Assembly (NCBI RefSeq): GCF_044647545.1
Contig: NZ_CP172818.1
Direction: 5' to 3' (one strand)
Origin: Escherichia coli
GTDB taxonomy: Bacteria > Pseudomonadota > Gammaproteobacteria > Enterobacterales > Enterobacteriaceae
DNA: 64,000 nt
Below the pieces are notes generated by a model, which saw only the letters and a list, made by a program, of their open reading frames with translations, had not been told where the DNA came from and made no database searches. Positions 2,530 through 64,000 of this stretch are shown piece by piece. The position numbers and the translations under genes were made by a program. Every line of letters begins with the position of its first letter. The first letter of the stretch is position 1.

Positions 2530-3552
2530 ATGTTTCAGCAGCAAAAAGACTGGGAAACAAGAGAAAACGCGTTTGCTGCTTTTACCATGGGACTGCTGAC
2601 TGATTTCTGGCGTCAGCGTGATGAAGCAGAATTTACTGGTGTGGATGACATTCCGGTGCGCTTTGTCCGTTTTCGCGCACAGCACCATGACCGGGTGGTA
2701 GTCATCTGCCCGGGGCGTATTGAGAGCTACGTAAAATATGCGGAACTGGCCTACGATCTGTTCCATTTGGGGTTTGATGTCTTAATCATCGACCATCGCG
2801 GGCAGGGACGTTCCGGTCGCCTGTTAGCCGATCCGCATCTCGGGCATGTTAATCGCTTTAATGATTATGTTGATGATCTGGCGGCATTCTGGCAACAGGA
2901 GGTTCAGCCCGGTCCGTGGCGTAAACGTTATATACTGGCACATTCGATGGGCGGTGCGATCTCCACATTATTTCTGCAACGCCATCCAGGTGTATGTGAC
3001 GCCATTGCGCTAACTGCGCCAATGTTTGGGATCGTGATTCGTATGCCGTCATTTATGGCACGGCAGATCCTCAACTGGGCCGAAGCGCATCCACGTTTCC
3101 GTGATGGCTATGCAATAGGCACCGGGCGCTGGCGCGCGTTGCCGTTTGCTATCAACGTACTGACCCACAGCAGACAGCGATATCGACGTAACTTACGCTT
3201 CTATGCTGATGATCCAACGATTCGCGTCGGTGGGCCGACCTACCATTGGGTACGCGAAAGTATTCTGGCTGGCGAACAGGTGTTAGCCGGTGCGGGTGAT
3301 GACGCCACGCCAACGCTTCTCTTACAAGCTGAAGAGGAACGCGTGGTGGATAACCGCATGCATGACCGTTTTTGTGAACTCCGCACCGCTGCGGGCCATC
3401 CTGTCGAAGGAGGACGGCCGTTGGTAATTAAAGGTGCGTACCATGAGATCCTTTTTGAAAAGGACGCAATGCGCTCAGTCGCGCTCCACGCCATCGTTGA
3501 TTTTTTCAACAGGCATAACTCACCCAGCGGAAACCGCTCTACAGAGGTTTAA
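2530..3552 (+). CDS. pldB: lysophospholipase L2, 340 aa
   Basis: 340-aa ORF with alpha/beta hydrolase GHSMGG motif; conserved context. Confidence 0.92.
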   Translation: MFQQQKDWETRENAFAAFTMGLLTDFWRQRDEAEFTGVDDIPVRFVRFRAQHHDRVVVICPGRIESYVKYAELAYDLFHLGFDVLIIDHRGQGRSGRLLADPHLGHVNRFNDYVDDLAAFWQQEVQPGPWRKRYILAHSMGGAISTLFLQRHPGVCDAIALTAPMFGIVIRMPSFMARQILNWAEAHPRFRDGYAIGTGRWRALPFAINVLTHSRQRYRRNLRFYADDPTIRVGGPTYHWVRESILAGEQVLAGAGDDATPTLLLQAEEERVVDNRMHDRFCELRTAAGHPVEGGRPLVIKGAYHEILFEKDAMRSVALHAIVDFFNRHNSPSGNRSTEV

Positions 3553-3559
3553 ATTTCTT

Positions 3560-4360
3560 ATGTATCAGGTTGTTGCGTCTGATTTAGATGGCACGTTACT
3601 TTCTCCCGACCATACGTTATCCCCTTACGCCAAAGAAACTCTGAAGCTGCTCACCGCGCGCGGCATCAACTTTGTGTTTGCGACCGGTCGTCACCACGTT
3701 GATGTGGGGCAAATTCGCGATAATCTGGAGATTAAGTCTTACATGATTACCTCCAATGGCGCGCGCGTTCACGATCTGGATGGCAATCTGATTTTTGCTC
3801 ATAACCTGGATCGCGACATTGCCAGCGATCTGTTTGGCGTAGTCAACGACAATCCGGACATCATTACTAATGTTTATCGCGACGACGAATGGTTTATGAA
3901 TCGCCATCGCCCGGAAGAGATGCGCTTTTTTAAAGAAGCGGTGTTCAAATATGCGCTGTATGAGCCGGGATTACTGGAGCCGGAAGGCGTCAGCAAAGTG
4001 TTCTTCACCTGCGATTCCCATGAAAAACTTCTGCCACTGGAGCAAGCGATTAACGCTCGCTGGGGCGATCGCGTCAATGTCAGTTTCTCTACCTTAACCT
4101 GCCTGGAAGTCATGGCGGGCGGCGTGTCAAAAGGCCATGCGCTGGAAGCAGTGGCGAAGAAACTGGGCTACAGCCTGAAGGATTGTATTGCGTTTGGTGA
4201 CGGGATGAACGATGCCGAAATGCTGTCGATGGCGGGGAAAGGCTGCATTATGGGCAGTGCGCACCAGCGTCTGAAAGATCTGCATCCGGAACTGGAAGTG
4301 ATTGGTACTAACGCCGAGGACGCAGTGCCGCATTATCTGCGTAAGCTCTATTTATCGTAA
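3560..4360 (+). CDS. yigL: HAD-family sugar/pyridoxal phosphate phosphatase, 266 aa
   Basis: ATG at 3560 in frame with longer track ORF; HAD motifs (DLDGTLL, GDGMND). Confidence 0.9.
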   Translation: MYQVVASDLDGTLLSPDHTLSPYAKETLKLLTARGINFVFATGRHHVDVGQIRDNLEIKSYMITSNGARVHDLDGNLIFAHNLDRDIASDLFGVVNDNPDIITNVYRDDEWFMNRHRPEEMRFFKEAVFKYALYEPGLLEPEGVSKVFFTCDSHEKLLPLEQAINARWGDRVNVSFSTLTCLEVMAGGVSKGHALEAVAKKLGYSLKDCIAFGDGMNDAEMLSMAGKGCIMGSAHQRLKDLHPELEVIGTNAEDAVPHYLRKLYLS

Positions 4361-4435
4361 TCGTTCTTTATTTGGTCAGTTGTCAACCTGATACTTCGCT
4401 ACAATGGATACTCGTTAATCAAAGAGTTTTCCATT

Positions 4436-34831: not shown

Positions 34832-34939
34832 TGCCTGGCGGCCTTAGCGCGGTGGTCCCACCTGACCCCATGCCGAACTCAGAAGTGAAACGCCGTAGCG
34901 CCGATGGTAGTGTGGGGTCTCCCCATGCGAGAGTAGGGA
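34832..34939 (+). rRNA. rrfA: 5S ribosomal RNA, first 108 of 120 nt only; 3' terminal 12 nt (actgccaggcat) replaced by unrelated sequence
   Basis: tgcctggcggcc..ccccatgcgagagtaggga matches 5S, then continues ccacctttttgcg instead of actgccaggcat. Confidence 0.85.
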
Positions 34940-34968
34940 CCACCTTTTTGCGTTGGTGCGGAATAAAT

Positions 34969-50558: not shown

Positions 50559-50583
50559 GAAGTTTCCCGAACAACTTCAACTA

Positions 50584-51993: not shown

Positions 51994-52078
51994 ACTTTAA
52001 CTCTCCTGGATTGGTCATGGTCGTCGTGGTAACGAAATCTGCAATTATTTTGGCCGTGTCGCCGTAAAAAAGATAAAG

Positions 52079-52095
52079 CGAAAACTGTGCCAACT
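52079..52095 (-). promoter_or_regulatory. glnAp2 sigma-54 promoter (-24 GG / -12 GC; minus strand reads gttggcacagttttcgc)
   Basis: TGGCAC-N5-TTCGC element about 90 bp upstream of glnA start. Confidence 0.75.
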
Positions 52096-52139
52096 TTTAA
52101 ATTGCCCCTAAAAGGCGTTATCATGCTTAACATCGTGCA

Positions 52140-52215
52140 AAAGGGCTGCACCATGATGTGAATGTTGCACCAATATAGTGCTTCAATGGAAACATTAAGC
52201 ACCATATTGGTGCAA
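52140..52215. promoter_or_regulatory. NtrC enhancer sites upstream of glnA (tgcaccaatatagtgc, gcaccatattggtgca) overlapping the glnAp1 region
   Basis: Repeated TGCACC-N5-GGTGCA-like palindromes. Confidence 0.7.
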
Positions 52216-52365
52216 TGGCCTTTGGATAACCCTTTTTATGCTCCGTGAAAGCGATCACAAAGGGACTCTGCAATACTTGTTTGCGGAGGATGTTTGTGAT
52301 CCTGTTTTGTAGTGCGATTAATCCGTGTACAATAACGCGCTATTTCTAATGCCTGAGGCAAAGTT

Positions 52366-54189
52366 GTGATCGAAAAATTGCGTAATATCGCCATCATCGC
52401 GCACGTAGACCATGGTAAAACCACCCTGGTAGACAAGCTGCTCCAACAATCCGGTACGTTCGACTCTCGTGCCGAAACCCAAGAGCGCGTGATGGACTCC
52501 AACGATTTGGAGAAAGAGCGTGGGATTACCATCCTCGCGAAAAACACCGCTATCAAATGGAATGATTACCGTATCAACATCGTTGATACCCCGGGGCACG
52601 CCGACTTCGGTGGTGAAGTTGAACGTGTAATGTCCATGGTAGACTCAGTGCTGCTGGTGGTTGACGCATTTGACGGCCCGATGCCGCAAACGCGCTTCGT
52701 AACCAAAAAAGCGTTTGCTTACGGCCTGAAGCCGATTGTTGTTATCAACAAAGTTGACCGCCCTGGCGCGCGTCCTGATTGGGTTGTGGATCAGGTATTC
52801 GATCTGTTCGTTAACCTCGACGCGACCGACGAGCAGCTGGACTTCCCGATCGTTTACGCTTCTGCGCTGAATGGTATCGCGGGTCTGGACCACGAAGATA
52901 TGGCGGAAGACATGACCCCGCTGTATCAGGCGATTGTTGACCACGTTCCTGCGCCGGACGTTGACCTTGACGGTCCGTTCCAGATGCAGATTTCTCAGCT
53001 CGATTACAACAGCTATGTTGGCGTTATCGGCATTGGCCGCATCAAGCGCGGTAAAGTGAAGCCGAACCAACAGGTTACTATCATCGATAGCGAAGGCAAA
53101 ACCCGCAACGCGAAAGTCGGTAAAGTGCTGGGCCACCTCGGTCTGGAACGTATCGAAACCGATCTGGCGGAAGCTGGCGATATCGTGGCGATCACGGGTC
53201 TTGGCGAACTGAACATTTCTGACACCGTTTGCGACACGCAAAACGTTGAAGCGCTGCCGGCACTCTCCGTTGATGAGCCGACCGTTTCTATGTTCTTCTG
53301 CGTTAACACCTCGCCGTTCTGCGGTAAAGAAGGTAAGTTCGTAACGTCTCGTCAGATCCTGGATCGTCTGAACAAAGAACTGGTACACAACGTTGCGCTG
53401 CGCGTAGAAGAAACCGAAGACGCCGATGCGTTCCGCGTTTCTGGTCGTGGCGAACTGCACCTGTCTGTTCTTATCGAAAACATGCGTCGTGAAGGTTTCG
53501 AACTGGCGGTATCCCGTCCGAAAGTAATCTTCCGTGAAATCGACGGTCGTAAACAAGAGCCGTATGAAAACGTGACGCTGGACGTTGAAGAACAGCATCA
53601 GGGTTCTGTGATGCAGGCGCTGGGCGAACGTAAAGGCGACCTGAAAAACATGAATCCAGACGGTAAAGGCCGCGTACGTCTCGACTACGTGATCCCAAGC
53701 CGTGGTCTGATTGGCTTCCGTTCTGAGTTCATGACCATGACTTCCGGTACTGGTCTGCTGTACTCCACCTTCAGCCACTACGACGACGTACGTCCGGGCG
53801 AAGTGGGTCAGCGTCAGAACGGTGTACTGATCTCTAACGGTCAGGGTAAAGCGGTCGCGTTCGCGCTGTTCGGTCTGCAGGATCGCGGTAAGCTGTTCCT
53901 CGGTCACGGTGCAGAAGTTTACGAAGGTCAGATTATCGGTATTCATAGCCGCTCTAACGACCTGACTGTAAACTGCCTGACCGGTAAGAAACTGACCAAC
54001 ATGCGTGCTTCCGGTACTGACGAAGCCGTTGTTCTGGTTCCGCCTATCCGCATGACTCTGGAACAAGCTCTGGAGTTCATCGATGATGACGAACTGGTAG
54101 AAGTGACTCCGACCTCTATCCGTATTCGTAAACGTCACCTGACGGAAAACGATCGTCGTCGCGCCAACCGCGCACCGAAAGACGATTAA
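52366..54189 (+). CDS. typA: ribosome-associated translational GTPase BipA/TypA, 607 aa
   Basis: GTG start; [25 protein letters not shown].. EF-G-like GTPase. Confidence 0.96.
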
Positions 54190-54206
54190 TTTCGTTTTTT
54201 AGTTAT

Positions 54207-54239
54207 AAAAAACCTGCCATCGCTGGCAGGTTTTTTTTT
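54207..54239 (+). terminator. intrinsic terminator downstream of typA
   Basis: aaaaaacctgccatcgctggcaggttttttttt. Confidence 0.85.
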
Positions 54240-54405
54240 GCCTGTCGTGAGCGCACACCAATGCGAGTATCTCCCTTATAAGTCTGTGGTTACGTCAATA
54301 GAGAGCTTTGTCACAATTATCTGCAAAGTCATACGCCGTTAATTGCTTTCTTTTTTGGCGTAAGCGTAAGATGCTTCATCTGGTTTAAACCAAAAGGATT
54401 AAACA

Positions 54406-55115
54406 ATGGCGGAGAATCAATCCACCGTAGAAAATGCAAAAGAGAAACTGGATCGGTGGTTGAAAGATGGCATCACCACGCCGGGTGGAAAACTCCCTTC
54501 AGAAAGAGAGCTGGGAGAACTGCTGGGCATTAAACGTATGACGCTGCGCCAGGCGTTGTTGAACCTCGAGGCAGAATCCAAAATCTTCCGTAAGGATTGT
54601 AGGGGTGGTTCGTGACCCAGCCGCGATTTAATTACAGTCCGGAGCTGTCAGCGAGCTTTCAGCGGGCCGCAATTGAGCAAGGACGAGAGCCTTCCTGGGG
54701 GTTTACCGAGAAAAACCGTACCAGCGATATTCCCGAGACGCTCGCGCCACTGATCGCAGTGACACCATCAACTGAACTCTATCGCATCACCGGCTGGGGG
54801 GCGCTGGAAGGACATAAAGTTTTCTATCACGAAACATATATTAATCCTGAAGTTGCTCCGGGCTTTATTGAACAACTTGAAAACCACTCATTTTCTGCAG
54901 TCTGGGAAAAGTGCTACCAAAAAGAGACGGTAGTAAAAAAATTGATTTTCAAACCCGTCAGAATGCCGGGCGATATCAGCAAGTATCTTGGCGGTTCTGC
55001 GGGTATGCCAGCGATCTTAATTGAAAAGCATCGCGCCGACCAGCAAGGCAATATTGTCCAAATAGATATTGAATATTGGCGATTTGAGGCCGTAGACCTC
55101 ATCATTAATCTGTAG
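54406..55115 (+). pseudogene. yihL: GntR-family transcriptional regulator YihL, interrupted by a frameshift near 54590-54615 (ORFs 54406..54615, 69 aa, and 54612..55115, 167 aa)
   Basis: Two adjacent ORFs in different frames overlapping at gtga; together 236 aa, matching the remembered YihL length (N-terminal HTH plus C-terminal UTRA-like domain). Confidence 0.7.
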
Positions 55116-55122
55116 GTGTTTT

Positions 55123-56103
55123 ATGGTGACAATAAATAACGCAAGAAAGATTCTACAACGTGTCGACACTCTTCCTCTTTATTTACATGCTTATGCCTTT
55201 CATTTAAATATGCGGCTGGAAAGAGTGTTGCCTGCTGATTTACTTGATATCGCAAGTGAAAATAATCTACGTGGCGTCAAAATCCATGTTCTCGATGGCG
55301 AGCGTTTTTCTCTTGGTAATATGGACGATAAAGAACTCTCTGCCTTTGGGGATAAAGCCCGCCGTCTGAACCTTGATATTCATATTGAAACCAGCGCCTC
55401 AGATAAGGCATCTATTGACGAAGCCGTCGCCATCGCGTTGAAAACTGGGGCATCGTCCGTACGTTTTTATCCACGTTATGAAGGTAATTTGCGCGACGTA
55501 TTATCGATTATCGCTAACGACATTGCCTATGTACGGGAAACGTATCAGGACAGCGGCCTGACTTTTACGATCGAGCAGCATGAAGATTTAAAAAGTCATG
55601 AGCTGGTGTCGCTGGTCAAAGAAAGTGAGATGGAATCTCTTTCCTTACTGTTTGATTTTGCGAACATGATCAATGCAAATGAGCATCCCATCGACGCTTT
55701 AAAAACGATGGCACCGCATATTACCCAGGTCCATATCAAAGATGCCTTGATCGTTAAAGAACCGGGTGGCCTGGGTCATAAAGCCTGTATTTCAGGTCAG
55801 GGTGATATGCCGTTCAAAGCGTTATTAACGCACCTTATCTGCCTGGGTGATGATGAGCCGCAGGTGACGGCATATGGCCTGGAAGAAGAGGTTGATTACT
55901 ATGCGCCGGCGTTCCGCTTTGAAGACGAAGATGATAATCCGTGGATCCCTTATCGCCAGATGAGTGAAACACCATTGCCAGAAAATCATTTACTGGATGC
56001 GCGGTTACGTAAAGAAAAAGAAGATGCAATTAATCAGATAAATCATGTGCGTAACGTACTACAACAAATCAAACAAGAGGCAAACCATCTTCTGAACCAC
56101 TAA
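55123..56103 (+). CDS. yihM: xylose-isomerase-like TIM-barrel (sugar phosphate isomerase/epimerase family) protein YihM, 326 aa
   Basis: 326-aa ORF in conserved position. Confidence 0.85.
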   Translation: MVTINNARKILQRVDTLPLYLHAYAFHLNMRLERVLPADLLDIASENNLRGVKIHVLDGERFSLGNMDDKELSAFGDKARRLNLDIHIETSASDKASIDEAVAIALKTGASSVRFYPRYEGNLRDVLSIIANDIAYVRETYQDSGLTFTIEQHEDLKSHELVSLVKESEMESLSLLFDFANMINANEHPIDALKTMAPHITQVHIKDALIVKEPGGLGHKACISGQGDMPFKALLTHLICLGDDEPQVTAYGLEEEVDYYAPAFRFEDEDDNPWIPYRQMSETPLPENHLLDARLRKEKEDAINQINHVRNVLQQIKQEANHLLNH

Positions 56104-56204
56104 TAAGTTTTAACTCATACGCAGTTAATAAAACCATTCCATATGAATGGTCGGTATCTTATTGCCTTTAAAACAGTGATTTTAAAAATCGCTTAGGGGA
56201 TGTT

Positions 56205-57470
56205 ATGCTCACGAAAAAGAAATGGGCGTTATTTAGTCTATTAACACTGTGTGGCGGTACAATTTATAAATTACCGTCGCTGAAAGATGCGTTTTATATC
56301 CCGATGCAGGAATATTTCCATTTGACCAATGGTCAAATTGGTAATGCTATGTCGGTAAACTCATTTGTCACCACAGTGGGCTTTTTTCTGTCTATTTATT
56401 TTGCCGATAAACTACCGCGCAGATACACCATGTCATTCTCACTCATTGCGACAGGATTACTGGGTGTTTATTTGACGACAATGCCGGGGTATTGGGGCAT
56501 CCTCTTTGTCTGGGCGCTATTTGGCGTTACTTGCGACATGATGAACTGGCCGGTCTTGCTCAAGTCGGTAAGTCGATTGGGCAATAGCGAACAACAAGGT
56601 CGGTTGTTTGGCTTCTTCGAAACAGGGCGTGGCATTGTCGATACCGTGGTGGCATTTTCTGCGTTGGCAGTATTTACCTGGTTTGGCAGTGGCTTATTAG
56701 GTTTTAAAGCAGGCATCTGGTTCTATTCCCTTATTGTGATTGCCGTAGGCATTATTATTTTCTTTGTCCTGAATGACAAAGAAGAGGCACCGTCCGTTGA
56801 GGTGAAAAAAGAAGACGGAGCATCGAAAAACACCAGTATGACCTCGGTGCTGAAAGACAAAACTATCTGGCTTATCGCTTTTAACGTCTTCTTCGTTTAC
56901 GCGGTTTACTGTGGCCTGACATTCTTCATTCCATTCCTGAAAAACATCTATCTATTGCCCGTTGCGCTGGTGGGGGCTTACGGCATCATTAACCAATACT
57001 GTCTGAAAATGATTGGTGGACCGATTGGTGGCATGATTTCAGATAAGATCCTGAAATCGCCAAGTAAATATCTATGCTACACCTTTATCATTAGTACCGC
57101 TGCGCTCGTACTGTTGATTATGCTGCCGCACGAAAGTATGCCGGTCTATTTAGGGATGGCATGTACGCTGGGCTTTGGCGCGATAGTCTTTACACAGCGA
57201 GCCGTATTTTTTGCACCTATCGGCGAAGCAAAAATTGCTGAAAATAAAACAGGTGCGGCGATGGCGTTGGGTAGCTTTATTGGTTACGCTCCGGCGATGT
57301 TCTGCTTCAGTCTGTATGGCTACATTCTGGATTTAAATCCGGGGATTATTGGCTACAAAATCGTGTTTGGCATTATGGCCTGCTTCGCATTCAGTGGTGC
57401 GGTGGTTTCCGTAATGCTGGTTAAGCGTATTAGCCAACGTAAGAAAGAGATGCTGGCGGCTGAAGCTTAA
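56205..57470 (+). CDS. yihN: MFS-family transporter YihN, 421 aa
   Basis: 421-aa polytopic membrane ORF. Confidence 0.88.
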   Translation: MLTKKKWALFSLLTLCGGTIYKLPSLKDAFYIPMQEYFHLTNGQIGNAMSVNSFVTTVGFFLSIYFADKLPRRYTMSFSLIATGLLGVYLTTMPGYWGILFVWALFGVTCDMMNWPVLLKSVSRLGNSEQQGRLFGFFETGRGIVDTVVAFSALAVFTWFGSGLLGFKAGIWFYSLIVIAVGIIIFFVLNDKEEAPSVEVKKEDGASKNTSMTSVLKDKTIWLIAFNVFFVYAVYCGLTFFIPFLKNIYLLPVALVGAYGIINQYCLKMIGGPIGGMISDKILKSPSKYLCYTFIISTAALVLLIMLPHESMPVYLGMACTLGFGAIVFTQRAVFFAPIGEAKIAENKTGAAMALGSFIGYAPAMFCFSLYGYILDLNPGIIGYKIVFGIMACFAFSGAVVSVMLVKRISQRKKEMLAAEA

Positions 57471-57476
57471 TTAATG

Positions 57477-57560
<84 letters not shown>

Positions 57561-58253
57561 TCAGAAGAAATACTTCGTCCCGATACGAATCTGGTTTTGC
57601 TCGCGGTGGTACGGTTCGACATTACGATCTAACCAGCGCAATTCAATATAGGGCAACCAGTGCTCATTAATGCGATAACGGAAGGTGTTAGTGATTTCCC
57701 AGTGATGCTTCGTACCATTGCTGCTATTGAAATCATTAATGTTATAAAAATAATGCGGTTCAAAGGTATATGAGAACTTATCGGTAATAATAAAGTTCCA
57801 GTAGTTGCCAATCTCGTAGCTGTCATTATTATCCAGATCACCGTTCAAATCGGTTGAGCTGTAGTTATTATGGTTAAAACGATTACGTACCGTCAGGTTA
57901 AACCATGGAGTAAATTTGTAGTTAACATCCAGATAAACAGCACCACCCGAACCGATACTCTTATCATTAATTAAGCCACCGGGCTGGATGGTTAATTTAT
58001 CGGTTGGTTTGAATAACGGATACCAACCTTCGATTTCGTTATATCCATGTTTGAGTTCATCTTCTCGCTGAAAGGTGTAGGTATTGGTTAACATAATACC
58101 CGCGCCCATATCGAAGTTATAACCCACACGTAGCATAACCTCGCCCTGATCGGAGGCGAGATTATATGCCTCCCTGTTTTCGACGTATGCGCCAGCAAAT
58201 ACCGAGGCAGAGGTCAGAGAGGATAATAGAATTATTGCATTAATCTTTTTCAT
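57561..58253 (-). CDS. ompL: outer membrane porin OmpL, 230 aa
   Basis: MKKINAIILLSSLTSASVFA signal peptide, beta-barrel-like sequence ending ..GTKYFF. Confidence 0.9.
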   Translation of the reverse strand: MKKINAIILLSSLTSASVFAGAYVENREAYNLASDQGEVMLRVGYNFDMGAGIMLTNTYTFQREDELKHGYNEIEGWYPLFKPTDKLTIQPGGLINDKSIGSGGAVYLDVNYKFTPWFNLTVRNRFNHNNYSSTDLNGDLDNNDSYEIGNYWNFIITDKFSYTFEPHYFYNINDFNSSNGTKHHWEITNTFRYRINEHWLPYIELRWLDRNVEPYHREQNQIRIGTKYFF

Positions 58254-58319
58254 AATAAGTCCATTTTTAAACGTAGGGAGGCCGCCACCCACCAGGATGG
58301 AAATAGCGGCTATTGACAT

Positions 58320-59723
58320 TTATAACGTTACGGAAGCCGTTTTTTCTTCTGTCGCCATCTCTTTATTTTTGCGTTGGTTGATTTCCTCAATAATCAATGC
58401 AAACCGTTTTTCATTGAGTGTGTAAAAGAATCCCATCGTCAATGCAGCAATAATTGCCAGTGCACAAGGCCAGATAAAAATGAGCTGACGCAAACCCTGT
58501 AATGTCGCATCACTTTGCGCGATGTTGGGAACATAACCGATTTGCGTCAGCATAATGCCTGGCAAGAAGCCAGCAAGTGCGGCAGAAATTTTACGAAAGA
58601 AGGTATAACCGGTATAAACAGAACCTTCGGCACGAATACCGGTTTTCCATTCACCGTAATCTACGGTATCTGGCACCAGTGCCCAGTTCAGGCTGTTTAC
58701 AAAGGCCGTGCCAAAAAAGGCGACACAAGAGAACATGACGAAAGTGAAAGAGTTACTTCCCCAGAAATAATTCAGGATATCACCAACCGCCCATAGCACC
58801 ATGCCAGCTAAATAAACCTGTTTTTTACCAAAACATTTTACAGTTAATGGCACCAGTAATACGCCGACGAGGATACATCCCATACTGAAAAATCCCATCC
58901 ACGACAATAAATTAATATCATTCAGCACATACTGGGTGTAATAGACCTGAATCGCCAGTTTGATATTAAATGCCGCCAGGGTACACAGGTTAGCAATGCA
59001 CAAAACCAGCAATGGCGGATTACGAAATATCGCGCAAAAAGATTTGAGAATACTGGCTTTATGTCCGGTTGGCGTCGTGTCTACATAATGCTCTTTGACG
59101 CCTCTGTAGCACAGCATCATAAAAATAAAGCCACCAATGGAGAACATCAGTGCCGCGCAGGCATAACCGACGGTGGAGTCAGAAAAAAGCGACTGCAATG
59201 GAATAAATGCTACGGTACAAATCAATAGCCCTATGGTTGCGCCGCCCTGGCGGTAAGCCGCAAGCTGCGCGCGCTCATTCGGGTTTTTGGTAATTGCCGG
59301 GATCATCGCGCCATACGAGCAGTTCATCAGACTGTATGAAAGTCCAAACATCATAAACAGCGCGGTGGCAATCGTCGTTTTAACCGGCAAACTAAAAGTG
59401 GTGGCGATAAACTGGAGCGTTGCAATTAACGCCGCCGGAACCGCTGCATATAAAATAAAGGGACGAAATTTGCCTTTAGGCCCAATATTTTTCCGCGAGT
59501 CGAGTAAAAATCCGGTGAGCATATCGGTAAATGCGGTAAAAAACTTCGCCACCAGAAAGATAATCCCGCCATAGTAAGCAGGCATCCCTAATTCATCGGT
59601 ATAAAATTTGAGGAGATACAGAGTACCGATGCAGAGCATTAAATTCGAACCGACGTCGCCCATACCATAGGCGATTTTTTCCCGCAGATTCAGTCTTAAT
59701 GTCAGTGGATTATGGTCAGACAT
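58320..59723 (-). CDS. yihO: GPH-family sugar:cation symporter (sulfoquinovose importer) YihO, about 467 aa
   Basis: Polytopic GPH-family ORF; start MSDHNPLTL. Confidence 0.88.
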   Translation of the reverse strand: MSDHNPLTLRLNLREKIAYGMGDVGSNLMLCIGTLYLLKFYTDELGMPAYYGGIIFLVAKFFTAFTDMLTGFLLDSRKNIGPKGKFRPFILYAAVPAALIATLQFIATTFSLPVKTTIATALFMMFGLSYSLMNCSYGAMIPAITKNPNERAQLAAYRQGGATIGLLICTVAFIPLQSLFSDSTVGYACAALMFSIGGFIFMMLCYRGVKEHYVDTTPTGHKASILKSFCAIFRNPPLLVLCIANLCTLAAFNIKLAIQVYYTQYVLNDINLLSWMGFFSMGCILVGVLLVPLTVKCFGKKQVYLAGMVLWAVGDILNYFWGSNSFTFVMFSCVAFFGTAFVNSLNWALVPDTVDYGEWKTGIRAEGSVYTGYTFFRKISAALAGFLPGIMLTQIGYVPNIAQSDATLQGLRQLIFIWPCALAIIAALTMGFFYTLNEKRFALIIEEINQRKNKEMATEEKTASVTL

Positions 59724-61199: not shown

Positions 61200-63236
61200 T
61201 TAGATGCTTTTTAACGACGCGAACAGTGCCGCCCATTCGCTATCGGCGCGATAAAAGACCGGCGGTTTACCGATGGGCGCATTAACGGTAACTTCCCCGC
61301 CCCGGAACGCTTCACCCGTCCAGGCATGGACCCAGTTATCCTCCGGCAGATAGAGCGTCCAGTCGCTACGGCCTTCTTCATGCACCGGAGCGACCAGAAT
61401 GTCGCGGCCTAACAGGTACTGATATTTCAGGGTGTAGGTCTGCGCGTCGTCTTCGTAATGCAGGAACAGCGGGCGCATAACCGGCAGGCCGGACTTCGCA
61501 TTCAGCGCGACGGCCTCTTTCAGGTAAGGTTTCAGGGTGGTGAAGACGGTGGTCATACGGGCAAAATGGGCGATGGTTTCCGCGTCGCCGTCAAACTGCC
61601 AGTTGTCGCCAGGACGGTTACCTTCGTGGGTGCGCATCATCGGCGTGAAGGCGCTGAAATCGCACCAGCGCAGCAGCAGCTCTTTGCTGCGCTTCATCTC
61701 AAACAGGGTGGTGTAACCGCCAATATCGCTGTGATGCAGGCCATGTCCGGTCATTGCCAGCGACAGCGCCGCCGGGACAACCGACGCCAGGCCATCGTCG
61801 AGACTCCAGTCGACGTTCTGGTCGCCCGCCCACATCATGGTGGAGTATTTCTGGCTACCGGTAGAACCGGCGCGCATAAAGAAAAGGATCTCGCCAAGCT
61901 TGCCCGTTTCTTCAAGGGCTTCGTAGTTACATTTCGCCCACAGTGCGGGCCAGGCGTTATGCATAATTTCCGCGCTGACGCCGTTATGCAGGTAAGTGTC
62001 GGTGGGCAGATACTCGCCGAAGTCAGCCATCCAGCCGCCGCAGCCGAGTTCAATCATGTTCTTTTTGATCACTTCCTTGAACCAGGCGTAGGCTTCTGGA
62101 TTGGTGAGATCGACAACGCCGCCATAGAACTCGCCAAACTCCACCAGATAGTCGCCGCCAGAGGCATCTTTTGCCAGATAGCCGTGTGAAGCCGCCTCGG
62201 CGCAGAGGTCCTTATCGCTGGCAACATACGGGTTGATGTAGGCGAGGAACTGCACGCCTTCTTTGTTCCACTGTTTAATACGCGAATCCAGTTGCGGATA
62301 GTTTTCGCTGTTCCACTTCCAGTTCCACATCACACGTTTACCAAACGAGGTCATACGGATCCCGGACCAGTCCTGCGCCCAGATGCCGTTGACCTTCACG
62401 CCCGCGTTACGCATGGTGTCCAGTTTCTTCTGGCACACCTCAGTGCCGCCCTGAATGCCGAGCGTTACCCCGTCATAAATCCAGTCGGGCAGTTCTGGCT
62501 GGCGTCCCAGCAGGGCAGTTAATTTTTCCAGCAGGGAGATGTATGTATCAGCACATTCAAAACGCAGCGTTGCTTTGTCTTCCCACAGCGCCAGTTCATG
62601 GTATTCCGGGGCGCTAAAGTCGAAGTTCATGTAGCAACTGTTATCAACATGGCAGTAATACTTCTGCGTGCTGACAAACGTAGGCTGTGGGAAGAAAGTC
62701 CAGTAATAGTCGCCGCCCGCGTTCTCTTTGCAGTCGGCCTGCCAGGTGACATAGGTTTGCTTGTTGCGACCAACGCCTTGTTCACTGGTCCATAGCGGGA
62801 ACGGTTTGCCGCGCAGATCAAAGTAGGAGAATTGTTCACCGCAGCCGTAGATATGGTCCTCTGGTTGAGCGGCAAGGCGCAGCCAGATACGGTTGTGGTT
62901 AAGGTTGTCGTTTTGTAGTTCCAGCAATAAACGGCCCTGTTCGTCGGCAGAGATACGCAGCGTGGCGCTAATGTCAGAACCACGGCTGAAATGGATTAAC
63001 CAACCATCCGGTGACTGGCTGACGATGGCGTCGGTAAGCGCAATTTTCTCCTGTAGTTTATCTTTAATGCTGAAATTGCCGCGGAACATATCGATATCCG
63101 CAATACCTGAACCAATCCATAAACAAGGATTATCTTTGCTATGGGTTAAAATAAGACGCTGTTGAAAATGTAGGGTAAAACTGTCGTTATTCTGATGAAA
63201 CTGAAAATCTGGTAATTGTGGGCGTGGCGTATCCAT
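61200..63236 (-). CDS. yihQ: family GH31 alpha-glucosidase-like sulfoquinovosidase YihQ, 678 aa
   Basis: 678-aa GH31-like ORF. Confidence 0.92.
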   Translation of the reverse strand: MDTPRPQLPDFQFHQNNDSFTLHFQQRLILTHSKDNPCLWIGSGIADIDMFRGNFSIKDKLQEKIALTDAIVSQSPDGWLIHFSRGSDISATLRISADEQGRLLLELQNDNLNHNRIWLRLAAQPEDHIYGCGEQFSYFDLRGKPFPLWTSEQGVGRNKQTYVTWQADCKENAGGDYYWTFFPQPTFVSTQKYYCHVDNSCYMNFDFSAPEYHELALWEDKATLRFECADTYISLLEKLTALLGRQPELPDWIYDGVTLGIQGGTEVCQKKLDTMRNAGVKVNGIWAQDWSGIRMTSFGKRVMWNWKWNSENYPQLDSRIKQWNKEGVQFLAYINPYVASDKDLCAEAASHGYLAKDASGGDYLVEFGEFYGGVVDLTNPEAYAWFKEVIKKNMIELGCGGWMADFGEYLPTDTYLHNGVSAEIMHNAWPALWAKCNYEALEETGKLGEILFFMRAGSTGSQKYSTMMWAGDQNVDWSLDDGLASVVPAALSLAMTGHGLHHSDIGGYTTLFEMKRSKELLLRWCDFSAFTPMMRTHEGNRPGDNWQFDGDAETIAHFARMTTVFTTLKPYLKEAVALNAKSGLPVMRPLFLHYEDDAQTYTLKYQYLLGRDILVAPVHEEGRSDWTLYLPEDNWVHAWTGEAFRGGEVTVNAPIGKPPVFYRADSEWAALFASLKSI

Positions 63237-63589
63237 AAATAATCTCCATAGAGTATAAAGCTAATATTTCATGCCATCCTGTTGTTACAGGTTTCATTAA
63301 TTAAAGATTGTGTGCTATAAATAAAACCCCATAAGTGATATATAAAAACTTTTTCAGCCCGGCGGATTGCCGCCATTTTTAACCAAAAATGCCAGTTACA
63401 ATAATAACTAACAATAAACGGAGCAGAATCCAGCCGGGAATTCCCATCCCTTTTATCAACATAGAACCGGAGGCAATCAGCAACAAAAAGACCATCACAC
63501 GGAACACTTTGACTGAAAGCGTTTATGCACATATCTCCAACAAGCGAACCGAGAATCAGGAAAACAAAAAACACCAGTTAAAAAAAGAA

Positions 63590-63950
63590 ACATCAAAATC
63601 CCCCCCCCCCGCCCCCCCCGCCCCCCTTTTTGGGGAAAAAAAGGGTCCGAGGCCCCGAATCCCCCGGGCCCAATTCCAGCATACCTACACCCCCGCCCCG
63701 CCCCCCGCCCCGCTCGCCGCTACTCGCCGATACGCCGCGACCATAACGTCAAAACGACAGACAAGAAATAAACATAAAAAAAAAAAAAAAGAAAAGGATC
63801 CCCCTACCCATTAAAAACGTACATACAAACACACAAACAAACAACAAAAAAAAAAATAACGCCCCCCCAACACAAAAAAAAAAACCCCAACAAAAAGAAA
63901 AAAAAAAAAAAAAAAAAAAAAAACACCCCCCAAAAAAAAAAAAAACATAA
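63590..63950. repeat. low-complexity, homopolymer-rich (poly-C, poly-A) sequence; probable assembly or read-end artefact
   Basis: Runs such as c11, a25, ccccgcccc repeats and acaaacaaaca, atypical of E. coli. Confidence 0.8.
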
Positions 63951-64000
63951 TATTTCCTGTTGTGTAAATACAACCCTAAACAATGATCTCGTTCTTTTCT

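What the first reader, a model, noticed from the sequence alone, without database searches (positions are those of the whole stretch)
63237..63590. Expected upstream neighbour yihR is not recognisable after yihQ
In K-12 the sulfoquinovose cluster continues on the minus strand with yihR (aldose epimerase) just beyond the yihQ start. Here the minus strand has only a 101-aa AT-rich ORF (63269-63574) whose stop lies about 32 bp from the yihQ start, but whose sequence (MFFVFLILG.., ..YSTQSLINETCNNRMA) does not look like a mutarotase. The sequence degrades into the low-complexity tail, so the region is probably corrupted or replaced.
Basis: partly seen in the sequence, partly recalled or inferred. 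Interest (0 to 1): 0.3.

Follow-up and report, generated by a model that had tools for sequence, protein, structure and literature searches.

The report
Corrupted TauE permease gene, not yihR
The odd ORF next to yihQ is the garbled 3' end of a known TauE/SafE permease gene that lies between yihQ and yihR in about a quarter of E. coli genomes; the damage looks like a sequence-quality artefact, not biology.

Summary
A 101-aa minus-strand ORF (63269-63574) ends 32 nt from the yihQ start and has no YihR similarity.

The expectation behind it was wrong for this lineage. The window has 0 mismatches over 3,508 nt with E. coli FDAARGOS_497, up to base 63307. In that genome, and in 1,288 of 5,426 complete E. 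coli genomes, a 291-aa TauE/SafE permease gene (PF01925) lies between yihQ and yihR. K-12 lacks it.

Window 63308-63945 is a corrupted, colinear copy of that gene:
- 909 reference bases are squeezed into 638.
- Identity falls step by step from 100% to noise.
- Errors are mostly deletions. On the + strand they hit G hardest, then T, then C, and A least.
- The sequence collapses into A/C homopolymers, up to 26 A in a row.
- It snaps back to a perfect match at the TauE start codon (63946-63948).

The 101-aa ORF is a frameshifted chimera of TauE fragments that reads past the destroyed stop codon. yihR is not missing. In the reference, its stop codon begins 9 nt beyond the window's last base.

The gradient, the strand- and base-specific error pattern and the perfect flanks point to a base-calling, assembly or synthetic artefact rather than a real pseudogene. 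Interest is low.

The parts
61200..63236 (-). yihQ (sulfoquinovosidase), 678 aa, intact
   Evidence: ORF. Annotated as yihQ in the matching RefSeq genomes. 100% identical to FDAARGOS_497.
63237..63307 (.). Intact part of the yihQ-TauE spacer, which is 107 nt in the reference (L001 3438-3544). Holds the stop codon of the artefactual 101-aa ORF.
   Evidence: Perfect match to L001 3438-3508. The first difference is at window 63308 / L001 3509.
63308..63945 (.). Corrupted stretch: 638 nt standing for 909 reference nt (L001 3509-4417). Decay worsens towards higher coordinates and ends abruptly.
   Evidence: Identity per 50 nt falls from 1.0 through 0.88-0.72 and 0.6-0.5 to 0.04, then returns to 1.0. 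Error spectrum. Full alignment. Low complexity.
63339..63948 (-). Remnant of the TauE/SafE-family permease gene (876 nt including the stop codon in the reference). The stop codon is destroyed near 63339-63343; the start codon is intact at 63946-63948.
   Evidence: Colinear DNA alignment to L001 3545-4420. tBLASTN with TauE residues 230-280, E = 2e-12. The reference protein matches PF01925 at E = 6.5e-35. Alignment score against shuffles: z = 11.4 for 63621-63780, 2.7 for 63781-63945, 0.8 for 63840-63945.
63269..63574 (-).
   Evidence: Only its ends are TauE in frame: LILGSLVG against TauE MILGSLVG, and MAAIRRAEK against VAAIRRAEE. The middle is out of frame. The tail (VFIYHLWGF...NRMA) is read-through of the lost stop codon into the spacer. 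No Pfam match.
63379..63507 (-). 42-aa ORF in another frame that holds the best-preserved TauE stretch (FRVMVFLLLIASGSMLIKG).
   Evidence: tBLASTN: 87% identity over TauE residues 230-259 at window 63433-63519, which covers most of this ORF. This falls in the best-preserved block, 98% DNA identity at 63474-63522.
63946..64000 (.). Intact TauE start codon (CAT on the + strand) plus 52 nt of the 60-nt TauE-yihR spacer. The window ends 8 nt before the yihR stop codon of the reference.
   Evidence: Perfect match to L001 4418-4472. yihR lies at L001 4481-5383.

Best explanation
The window comes from an E. coli strain whose sulfoquinovose cluster has the gene order yihP-yihQ-TauE/SafE permease-yihR-yihS, all on the minus strand. 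This is a common, already annotated alternative to the K-12 order yihQ-yihR. The flagged interval is the 3' end of that permease gene.

The gene body (63308-63945) has been corrupted by a non-biological process. Read along the + strand, bases are dropped more and more often (G most, then T, then C, then A), the rest drift towards A and C, and the text ends in A/C homopolymer noise. It then returns abruptly to a perfect match at the gene's start codon. Candidate causes are an untrimmed low-quality read tail or low-coverage consensus joined to the next good sequence, or deliberate or model-made corruption of the record.

The frameshifts break the real reading frame and destroy the stop codon. 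An ORF finder therefore reports a meaningless 101-aa ORF running into the spacer. yihR has not been lost; it would begin just past the window edge.

Shown directly: the identity of the locus, the colinearity, the gradient, the error spectrum, and the absence of any YihR match. Inferred: that the cause is technical, and which technical process produced it. Also inferred: the intact permease probably exports a C3-sulfonate or sulfite, by analogy with TauE-type permeases found in other sulfoglycolysis clusters (PMC8873060, PMC7491151).
For: Identity of the source:
- 0 mismatches over 3,508 nt with FDAARGOS_497 up to window 63307.
- 99.94-100% over 20151-54236.

Gene order:
- In that genome the order is yihQ, TauE/SafE (WP_022646362.1), yihR.
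- The TauE segment is present at 80% coverage or more in 1,288 of 5,426 genomes. It is absent from K-12, where yihQ and yihR are 198 nt apart.

Homology of the corrupted stretch:
- Colinear blastn alignment, 777 of 832 positions identical, spanning the junction.
- tBLASTN with TauE, E = 2e-12; with YihR, E > 2.
- Alignment score z = 11.4 against shuffles for 63621-63780.

Gradient and resynchronisation:
- Identity per 50 nt falls from 1.0 to 0.04 and returns to 1.0.
- The last difference is at L001 4417, next to the start codon.

Error spectrum:
- Reference G is kept at 63% and then 26% in the two zones; T at 84% then 36%; C at 96% then 61%; A at 98% then 77%.
- All 7 insertions are A.
- 278 bases are deleted against 7 inserted.

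Low complexity occurs only here in the 64 kb.
Against: I could not identify the source record or its read or quality data, so the technical cause is inferred rather than shown.

A 38-mer from the corrupted zone was not found in the genome-contig collection. No RefSeq complete E. coli genome contains the corrupted version: no place covered 80% or more of the query.

The corrupted span (L001 3509-4417) nearly coincides with the CDS (3545-4420). A random read-tail artefact would produce that overlap only by coincidence. It fits deliberate or model-made corruption of a single gene somewhat better.
Confidence: 0.9

Rival explanations
1. The TauE/SafE gene is a genuine decaying pseudogene in this strain, eroded by real mutations and small deletions.
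For: The gene is accessory: it is absent from about three quarters of E. coli genomes, so it is presumably dispensable. The window carries at least one other apparent frameshift, a 1-nt deletion in yihL.
Against: The flanks have zero differences from a sequenced strain over 3.5 kb, while the gene is 20% to over 90% different. No molecular clock allows that.

The damage is a one-directional gradient with an abrupt end. It is strand- and base-specific (G, then T, lost on the + strand) and ends in A26, A15 and C11 runs. This is unlike known pseudogene decay.
Confidence: 0.03
2. yihR, or the TauE gene, has been replaced by foreign or inserted DNA, such as an island or mobile element, that encodes a novel small membrane protein (the 101-aa ORF).
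For: The ORF is AT-rich, hydrophobic and unmatched in Pfam.
Against: The stretch aligns colinearly with the TauE gene from its 3' end to at least 63780, and both boundaries match the reference exactly. The ORF's in-frame matches to TauE are broken up by frameshifts. There are no repeats or other marks of a mobile element. The composition shift is explained by loss of G and T.
Confidence: 0.01
3. The strain really lacks yihR: the cluster is truncated beyond the TauE gene.
For: No YihR-like sequence exists anywhere in the window.
Against: The window ends 8 nt before the position where the yihR stop codon starts in the reference. The last 55 nt are identical to the reference spacer that leads into yihR. 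The window therefore says nothing against yihR being present.
Confidence: 0.03

Closest known systems
TauE/SafE-family 'sulfite exporter' gene between yihQ and yihR in E. coli (e.g. WP_022646362.1 of strain FDAARGOS_497, NZ_CP033850.1 1635708-1636583)
   Same: Same position, strand and flanks. The spacer towards yihQ is identical for its first 71 nt, and the start codon and upstream spacer are identical. The alignment is colinear through the gene, and residues 230-259 are 87% identical at protein level.
   Different: The window copy is 271 nt shorter (638 nt for 909 reference nt), has many frameshifts, has lost its stop codon, and its 5' half is A/C homopolymer noise. No intact ORF remains and Pfam no longer recognises it.
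K-12 MG1655 yihQ-yihR arrangement (b3878-b3879)
   Same: Same sulfoquinovose cluster and the same yihO-yihP-yihQ order. The window also has K-12-type yihL-yihM-yihN upstream (98.4% identity).
   Different: In K-12, yihR ends 198 nt from the yihQ start and there is no TauE gene. Only the first 56 nt of the K-12 spacer resemble the reference spacer, at 74% identity.
TauE-type (TSUP family) permeases in other sulfoglycolysis clusters, and TauE of Cupriavidus necator H16
   Same: Same Pfam family, PF01925, for the intact ortholog. These permeases recur in sulfoquinovose-degradation clusters and are proposed to export sulfite or organosulfonates (PMC8873060, PMC7491151).
   Different: The substrate of the E. 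coli protein has not been tested. Any role in exporting dihydroxypropanesulfonate, sulfolactate or sulfite is inference.

Membership tests
YihR / aldose 1-epimerase (sulfoquinovose mutarotase) | Sequence similarity to YihR in the flagged interval | tested here: not met
   tBLASTN with YihR from K-12 and from FDAARGOS_497 against 63000-64000: best E = 2.5 over 11 aa. Nothing at E <= 1e-3 in the whole window.
YihR / aldose 1-epimerase (sulfoquinovose mutarotase) | Position immediately upstream of yihQ, as in K-12 | tested here: not met
   In the matching lineage, yihR is the second gene upstream of yihQ, and its stop codon maps 9 nt past the window end.
TauE/SafE sulfite exporter family (Pfam PF01925, TSUP) | Match to the PF01925 profile above the gathering score | tested here: inconclusive
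   The intact ortholog in FDAARGOS_497 matches: 121.4 bits against a cut-off of 32.6, E = 6.5e-35. The two window ORFs (101 aa and 42 aa) give no match, because the frame is broken.
TauE/SafE sulfite exporter family (Pfam PF01925, TSUP) | Orthology to the E. coli yihQ-adjacent TauE gene by DNA colinearity and synteny | tested here: met
   Colinear alignment to L001 3509-4417 with identical flanks. tBLASTN E = 2e-12. z = 11.4 against shuffles for the mid-gene part.
TauE/SafE sulfite exporter family (Pfam PF01925, TSUP) | An intact ORF that encodes a multi-pass membrane permease | tested here: not met
   No ORF covers the gene. 278 bases are deleted and 7 inserted relative to the reference, and the stop codon is destroyed. 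As written, the window copy is non-functional.
TauE/SafE sulfite exporter family (Pfam PF01925, TSUP) | Transport of sulfite or an organosulfonate | not testable with these tools
   Rests only on the family annotation and on proposals in the literature (PMC8873060, PMC7491151).

The most novel reading that the evidence does not exclude
The A/C-rich, G- and T-depleted decay of the TauE gene is real DNA in the source strain. That would imply an unknown local, strand-specific and directional process of mutation and deletion that erased one accessory gene almost exactly from stop codon to start codon while leaving the flanks untouched.
Probability: 0.02. Interest if true: 0.6.

Novelty: not a real feature. 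Interest (0 to 1): 0.05.

Why it matters
It matters mainly for quality control. The last 700 nt or so of this window should not be used for gene calling or comparative claims. The 101-aa ORF and the 141-aa plus-strand ORF at 63389-63814 should be discarded.

It also corrects a reference bias. K-12 is not the universal template for the sulfoquinovose (yih) cluster. About a quarter of complete E. coli genomes, and about a third of those that match the yihQ region, carry an extra TauE/SafE permease gene between yihQ and yihR. That gene is already annotated in RefSeq, so nothing here is new biology.

Tried and rejected
- **Pfam on the 101-aa and 42-aa ORFs:** no match.
- **Search for the corrupted sequence in public data:** megablast against 5,426 complete E. 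coli genomes found no record covering 80% or more of 62800-64000. An exact 38-mer from the mildly corrupted zone was absent from the GTDB species-representative genomes. The source record stays unidentified.
- **Foreign insertion or replacement:** rejected, because the stretch is colinear with the TauE gene and beats shuffled and off-target controls.
- **Genuine pseudogene:** rejected, because of the perfect flanks, the one-way gradient and the base-specific error spectrum.
- **Diversity-generating retroelement (adenine-directed) mutagenesis:** rejected from the error spectrum. A is the best-preserved base, and most errors are deletions.
- **Other corrupted stretches in the window:** none found. 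Low entropy and long homopolymers occur only at 63551-63950.
- **Sequencing technology or process:** I could not tell a Sanger-type read tail from a low-coverage long-read consensus or from synthetic or model-made corruption.

Full report
**Observation.** The minus strand carries yihQ at 61200-63236 (678 aa). It also carries a 101-aa GTG-initiated ORF at 63269-63574, whose stop codon lies 32 nt from the yihQ start. GC falls to 0.355-0.385 across 63100-63600. From about 63550 the text becomes low-complexity: C11, C8, A15, A11, A11, A26 and A14 runs. Low dinucleotide entropy is found only at 63551-63950 in the whole 64 kb. tBLASTN with YihR from K-12 and from the closest reference finds nothing, with a best E of 2.5. 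The ORF has no Pfam match.

**What should be there.** Megablast of 62800-64000 against 5,426 complete E. coli genomes hit 3,918 genomes. In the best of them, the features under the match were 'yihQ' and 'sulfite exporter TauE/SafE family protein'. In strain FDAARGOS_497 (NZ_CP033850.1) the order on the minus strand is yihP, yihQ, a 291-aa TauE/SafE protein (WP_022646362.1), yihR, yihS, yihT. That protein matches PF01925 at E = 6.5e-35. The yihQ-to-yihR interval that contains this gene is present at 80% coverage or more in 1,288 of 5,426 genomes. K-12 MG1655 lacks it: yihR ends 198 nt from the yihQ start.

**How the window relates to the reference.** The window has 0 mismatches over 3,508 nt with FDAARGOS_497, ending at 63307. 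It is 99.94-100% identical over 20151-54236. The first difference is at window 63308 (L001 3509), 36 nt on the yihQ side of the TauE stop codon. The last difference is at L001 4417, next to the TauE start codon. The final 55 nt (63946-64000) again match perfectly: the CAT of the start codon plus 52 nt of the 60-nt TauE-yihR spacer. In between, 909 reference bases are represented by 638.

**Shape of the decay.** Identity per 50 reference bases runs 1.0, 0.88, 0.85, 0.81, 0.86, 0.98, 0.78, 0.72, 0.62, 0.70, 0.52, 0.72, 0.66, 0.51, 0.38, 0.20, 0.04, 0.42, 0.42, 0.72, 1.0. The stretch is still colinear with the TauE gene. The alignment score for 63621-63780 against its expected counterpart is z = 11.4 over composition-preserving shuffles, and it exceeds every off-target segment. 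For 63781-63945, z is 2.7. For the last part, 63840-63945, the signal is gone (z = 0.8).

**Error spectrum.** Errors are dominated by deletions: 278 bases deleted against 7 inserted, and all 7 insertions are A. They are base-specific on the + strand.

| Reference base | Kept, first zone | Kept, second zone |
|---|---|---|
| G | 63% | 26% |
| T | 84% | 36% |
| C | 96% | 61% |
| A | 98% | 77% |

Substitutions go mostly to A or C. Composition shifts from A .30, C .26, G .25, T .19 in the reference to A .49, C .32, G .11, T .08 in the window.

**What the 101-aa ORF is.** Only two short pieces are TauE in frame: LILGSLVG (TauE MILGSLVG, near residue 216) and MAAIRRAEK (TauE VAAIRRAEE, residues 281-289). 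The best-conserved stretch, SVKVFRVMVFLLLIASGSMLIKG, lies in a different frame, mostly within the 42-aa ORF at 63379-63507. tBLASTN gives E = 2e-12 for TauE residues 230-280, and 87% identity over residues 230-259. The natural stop codon (ESK*) is destroyed by an inserted base near 63339-63343. The frame therefore runs on through the spacer (VFIYHLWGF...NRMA) to a chance stop at 63269. The ORF is an artefact of frameshifts and is not a gene. The 141-aa plus-strand ORF at 63389-63814 is equally meaningless.

**yihR.** In the reference, yihR occupies L001 4481-5383, and window base 64000 corresponds to L001 4472. The yihR stop codon would therefore begin 9 nt beyond the window. The window gives no evidence that yihR is absent.

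**Cause.** The flanks are perfect. The decay runs one way and resynchronises abruptly. The loss is strand- and base-specific, and the stretch ends in homopolymer collapse. None of this fits mutation in a living lineage. It does fit a base caller or consensus losing signal, for example an untrimmed read tail or a single-read bridge joined to the next good sequence. It also fits artificial or model-made corruption.

I could not tell these causes apart. No complete RefSeq E. coli genome carries the corrupted version, and an exact 38-mer from it is absent from the species-representative genome collection. The corrupted span almost coincides with the CDS, running from 36 nt past the stop codon to codon 2. 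I cannot explain that coincidence. It leans slightly towards a process that acted on the gene as a unit, but it does not make a biological origin more plausible.

**Function of the intact gene (inference only).** TauE-type (TSUP) permeases recur in sulfoquinovose-degradation clusters. They are proposed to export sulfite or C3-sulfonates such as sulfolactate (PMC8873060; PMC7491151). The E. coli gene's place inside the yih operon suggests a similar role. I tested nothing on this point.

**Verdict.** The underlying gene is already annotated in more than a thousand genomes. The anomaly is an artefact, and interest is low.

Noticed in passing
window 54406-55116 (+), frameshift near 54600: The yihL homologue (GntR-type regulator, 236 aa in K-12) has a 1-nt deletion against K-12 (CGTAAGGGG becomes TGT-AGGGG). 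The frame breaks after about codon 64, and the longest remaining ORF is 167 aa (54612-55115). This may be a real pseudogene or another sequence error. I did not check it against other strains.
   Followed up: partly
window 54237-57550: The window is otherwise about 100% identical to E. coli FDAARGOS_497, but it differs between typA and ompL. Here it carries K-12-type yihL-yihM-yihN (98.4% identity to MG1655 over 52000-58357). FDAARGOS_497 instead has a 5.7-kb cluster of STM4011-STM4015 family genes (two of them radical-SAM proteins) plus a HAD hydrolase. This looks like a natural island swap in an otherwise identical background.
   Followed up: partly
window 50567-50571 and 34939-34945: There are small breaks in the otherwise perfect alignment to FDAARGOS_497. 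About 37 nt of the reference (L003 30465-30501, in the glnL-glnA spacer of that genome) have no counterpart at 50567-50571. A second small break lies at 34939-34945, just downstream of the 5S rRNA gene by the reference annotation. I did not examine either.
   Followed up: no
L001 3438-3495 vs K-12 yihQ-yihR spacer: Only the first 56 nt of the 198-nt K-12 yihQ-yihR spacer resemble the spacer of TauE-positive strains, at 74% identity. The rest has no match. The K-12 arrangement is therefore not a simple clean deletion of the TauE gene from this haplotype.
   Followed up: partly
window 63308-63945 vs TauE CDS: The corrupted span runs from 36 nt beyond the TauE stop codon to codon 2, so it almost exactly covers one gene. 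I have no explanation for this. It is worth checking whether the source data were altered one gene at a time.
   Followed up: no
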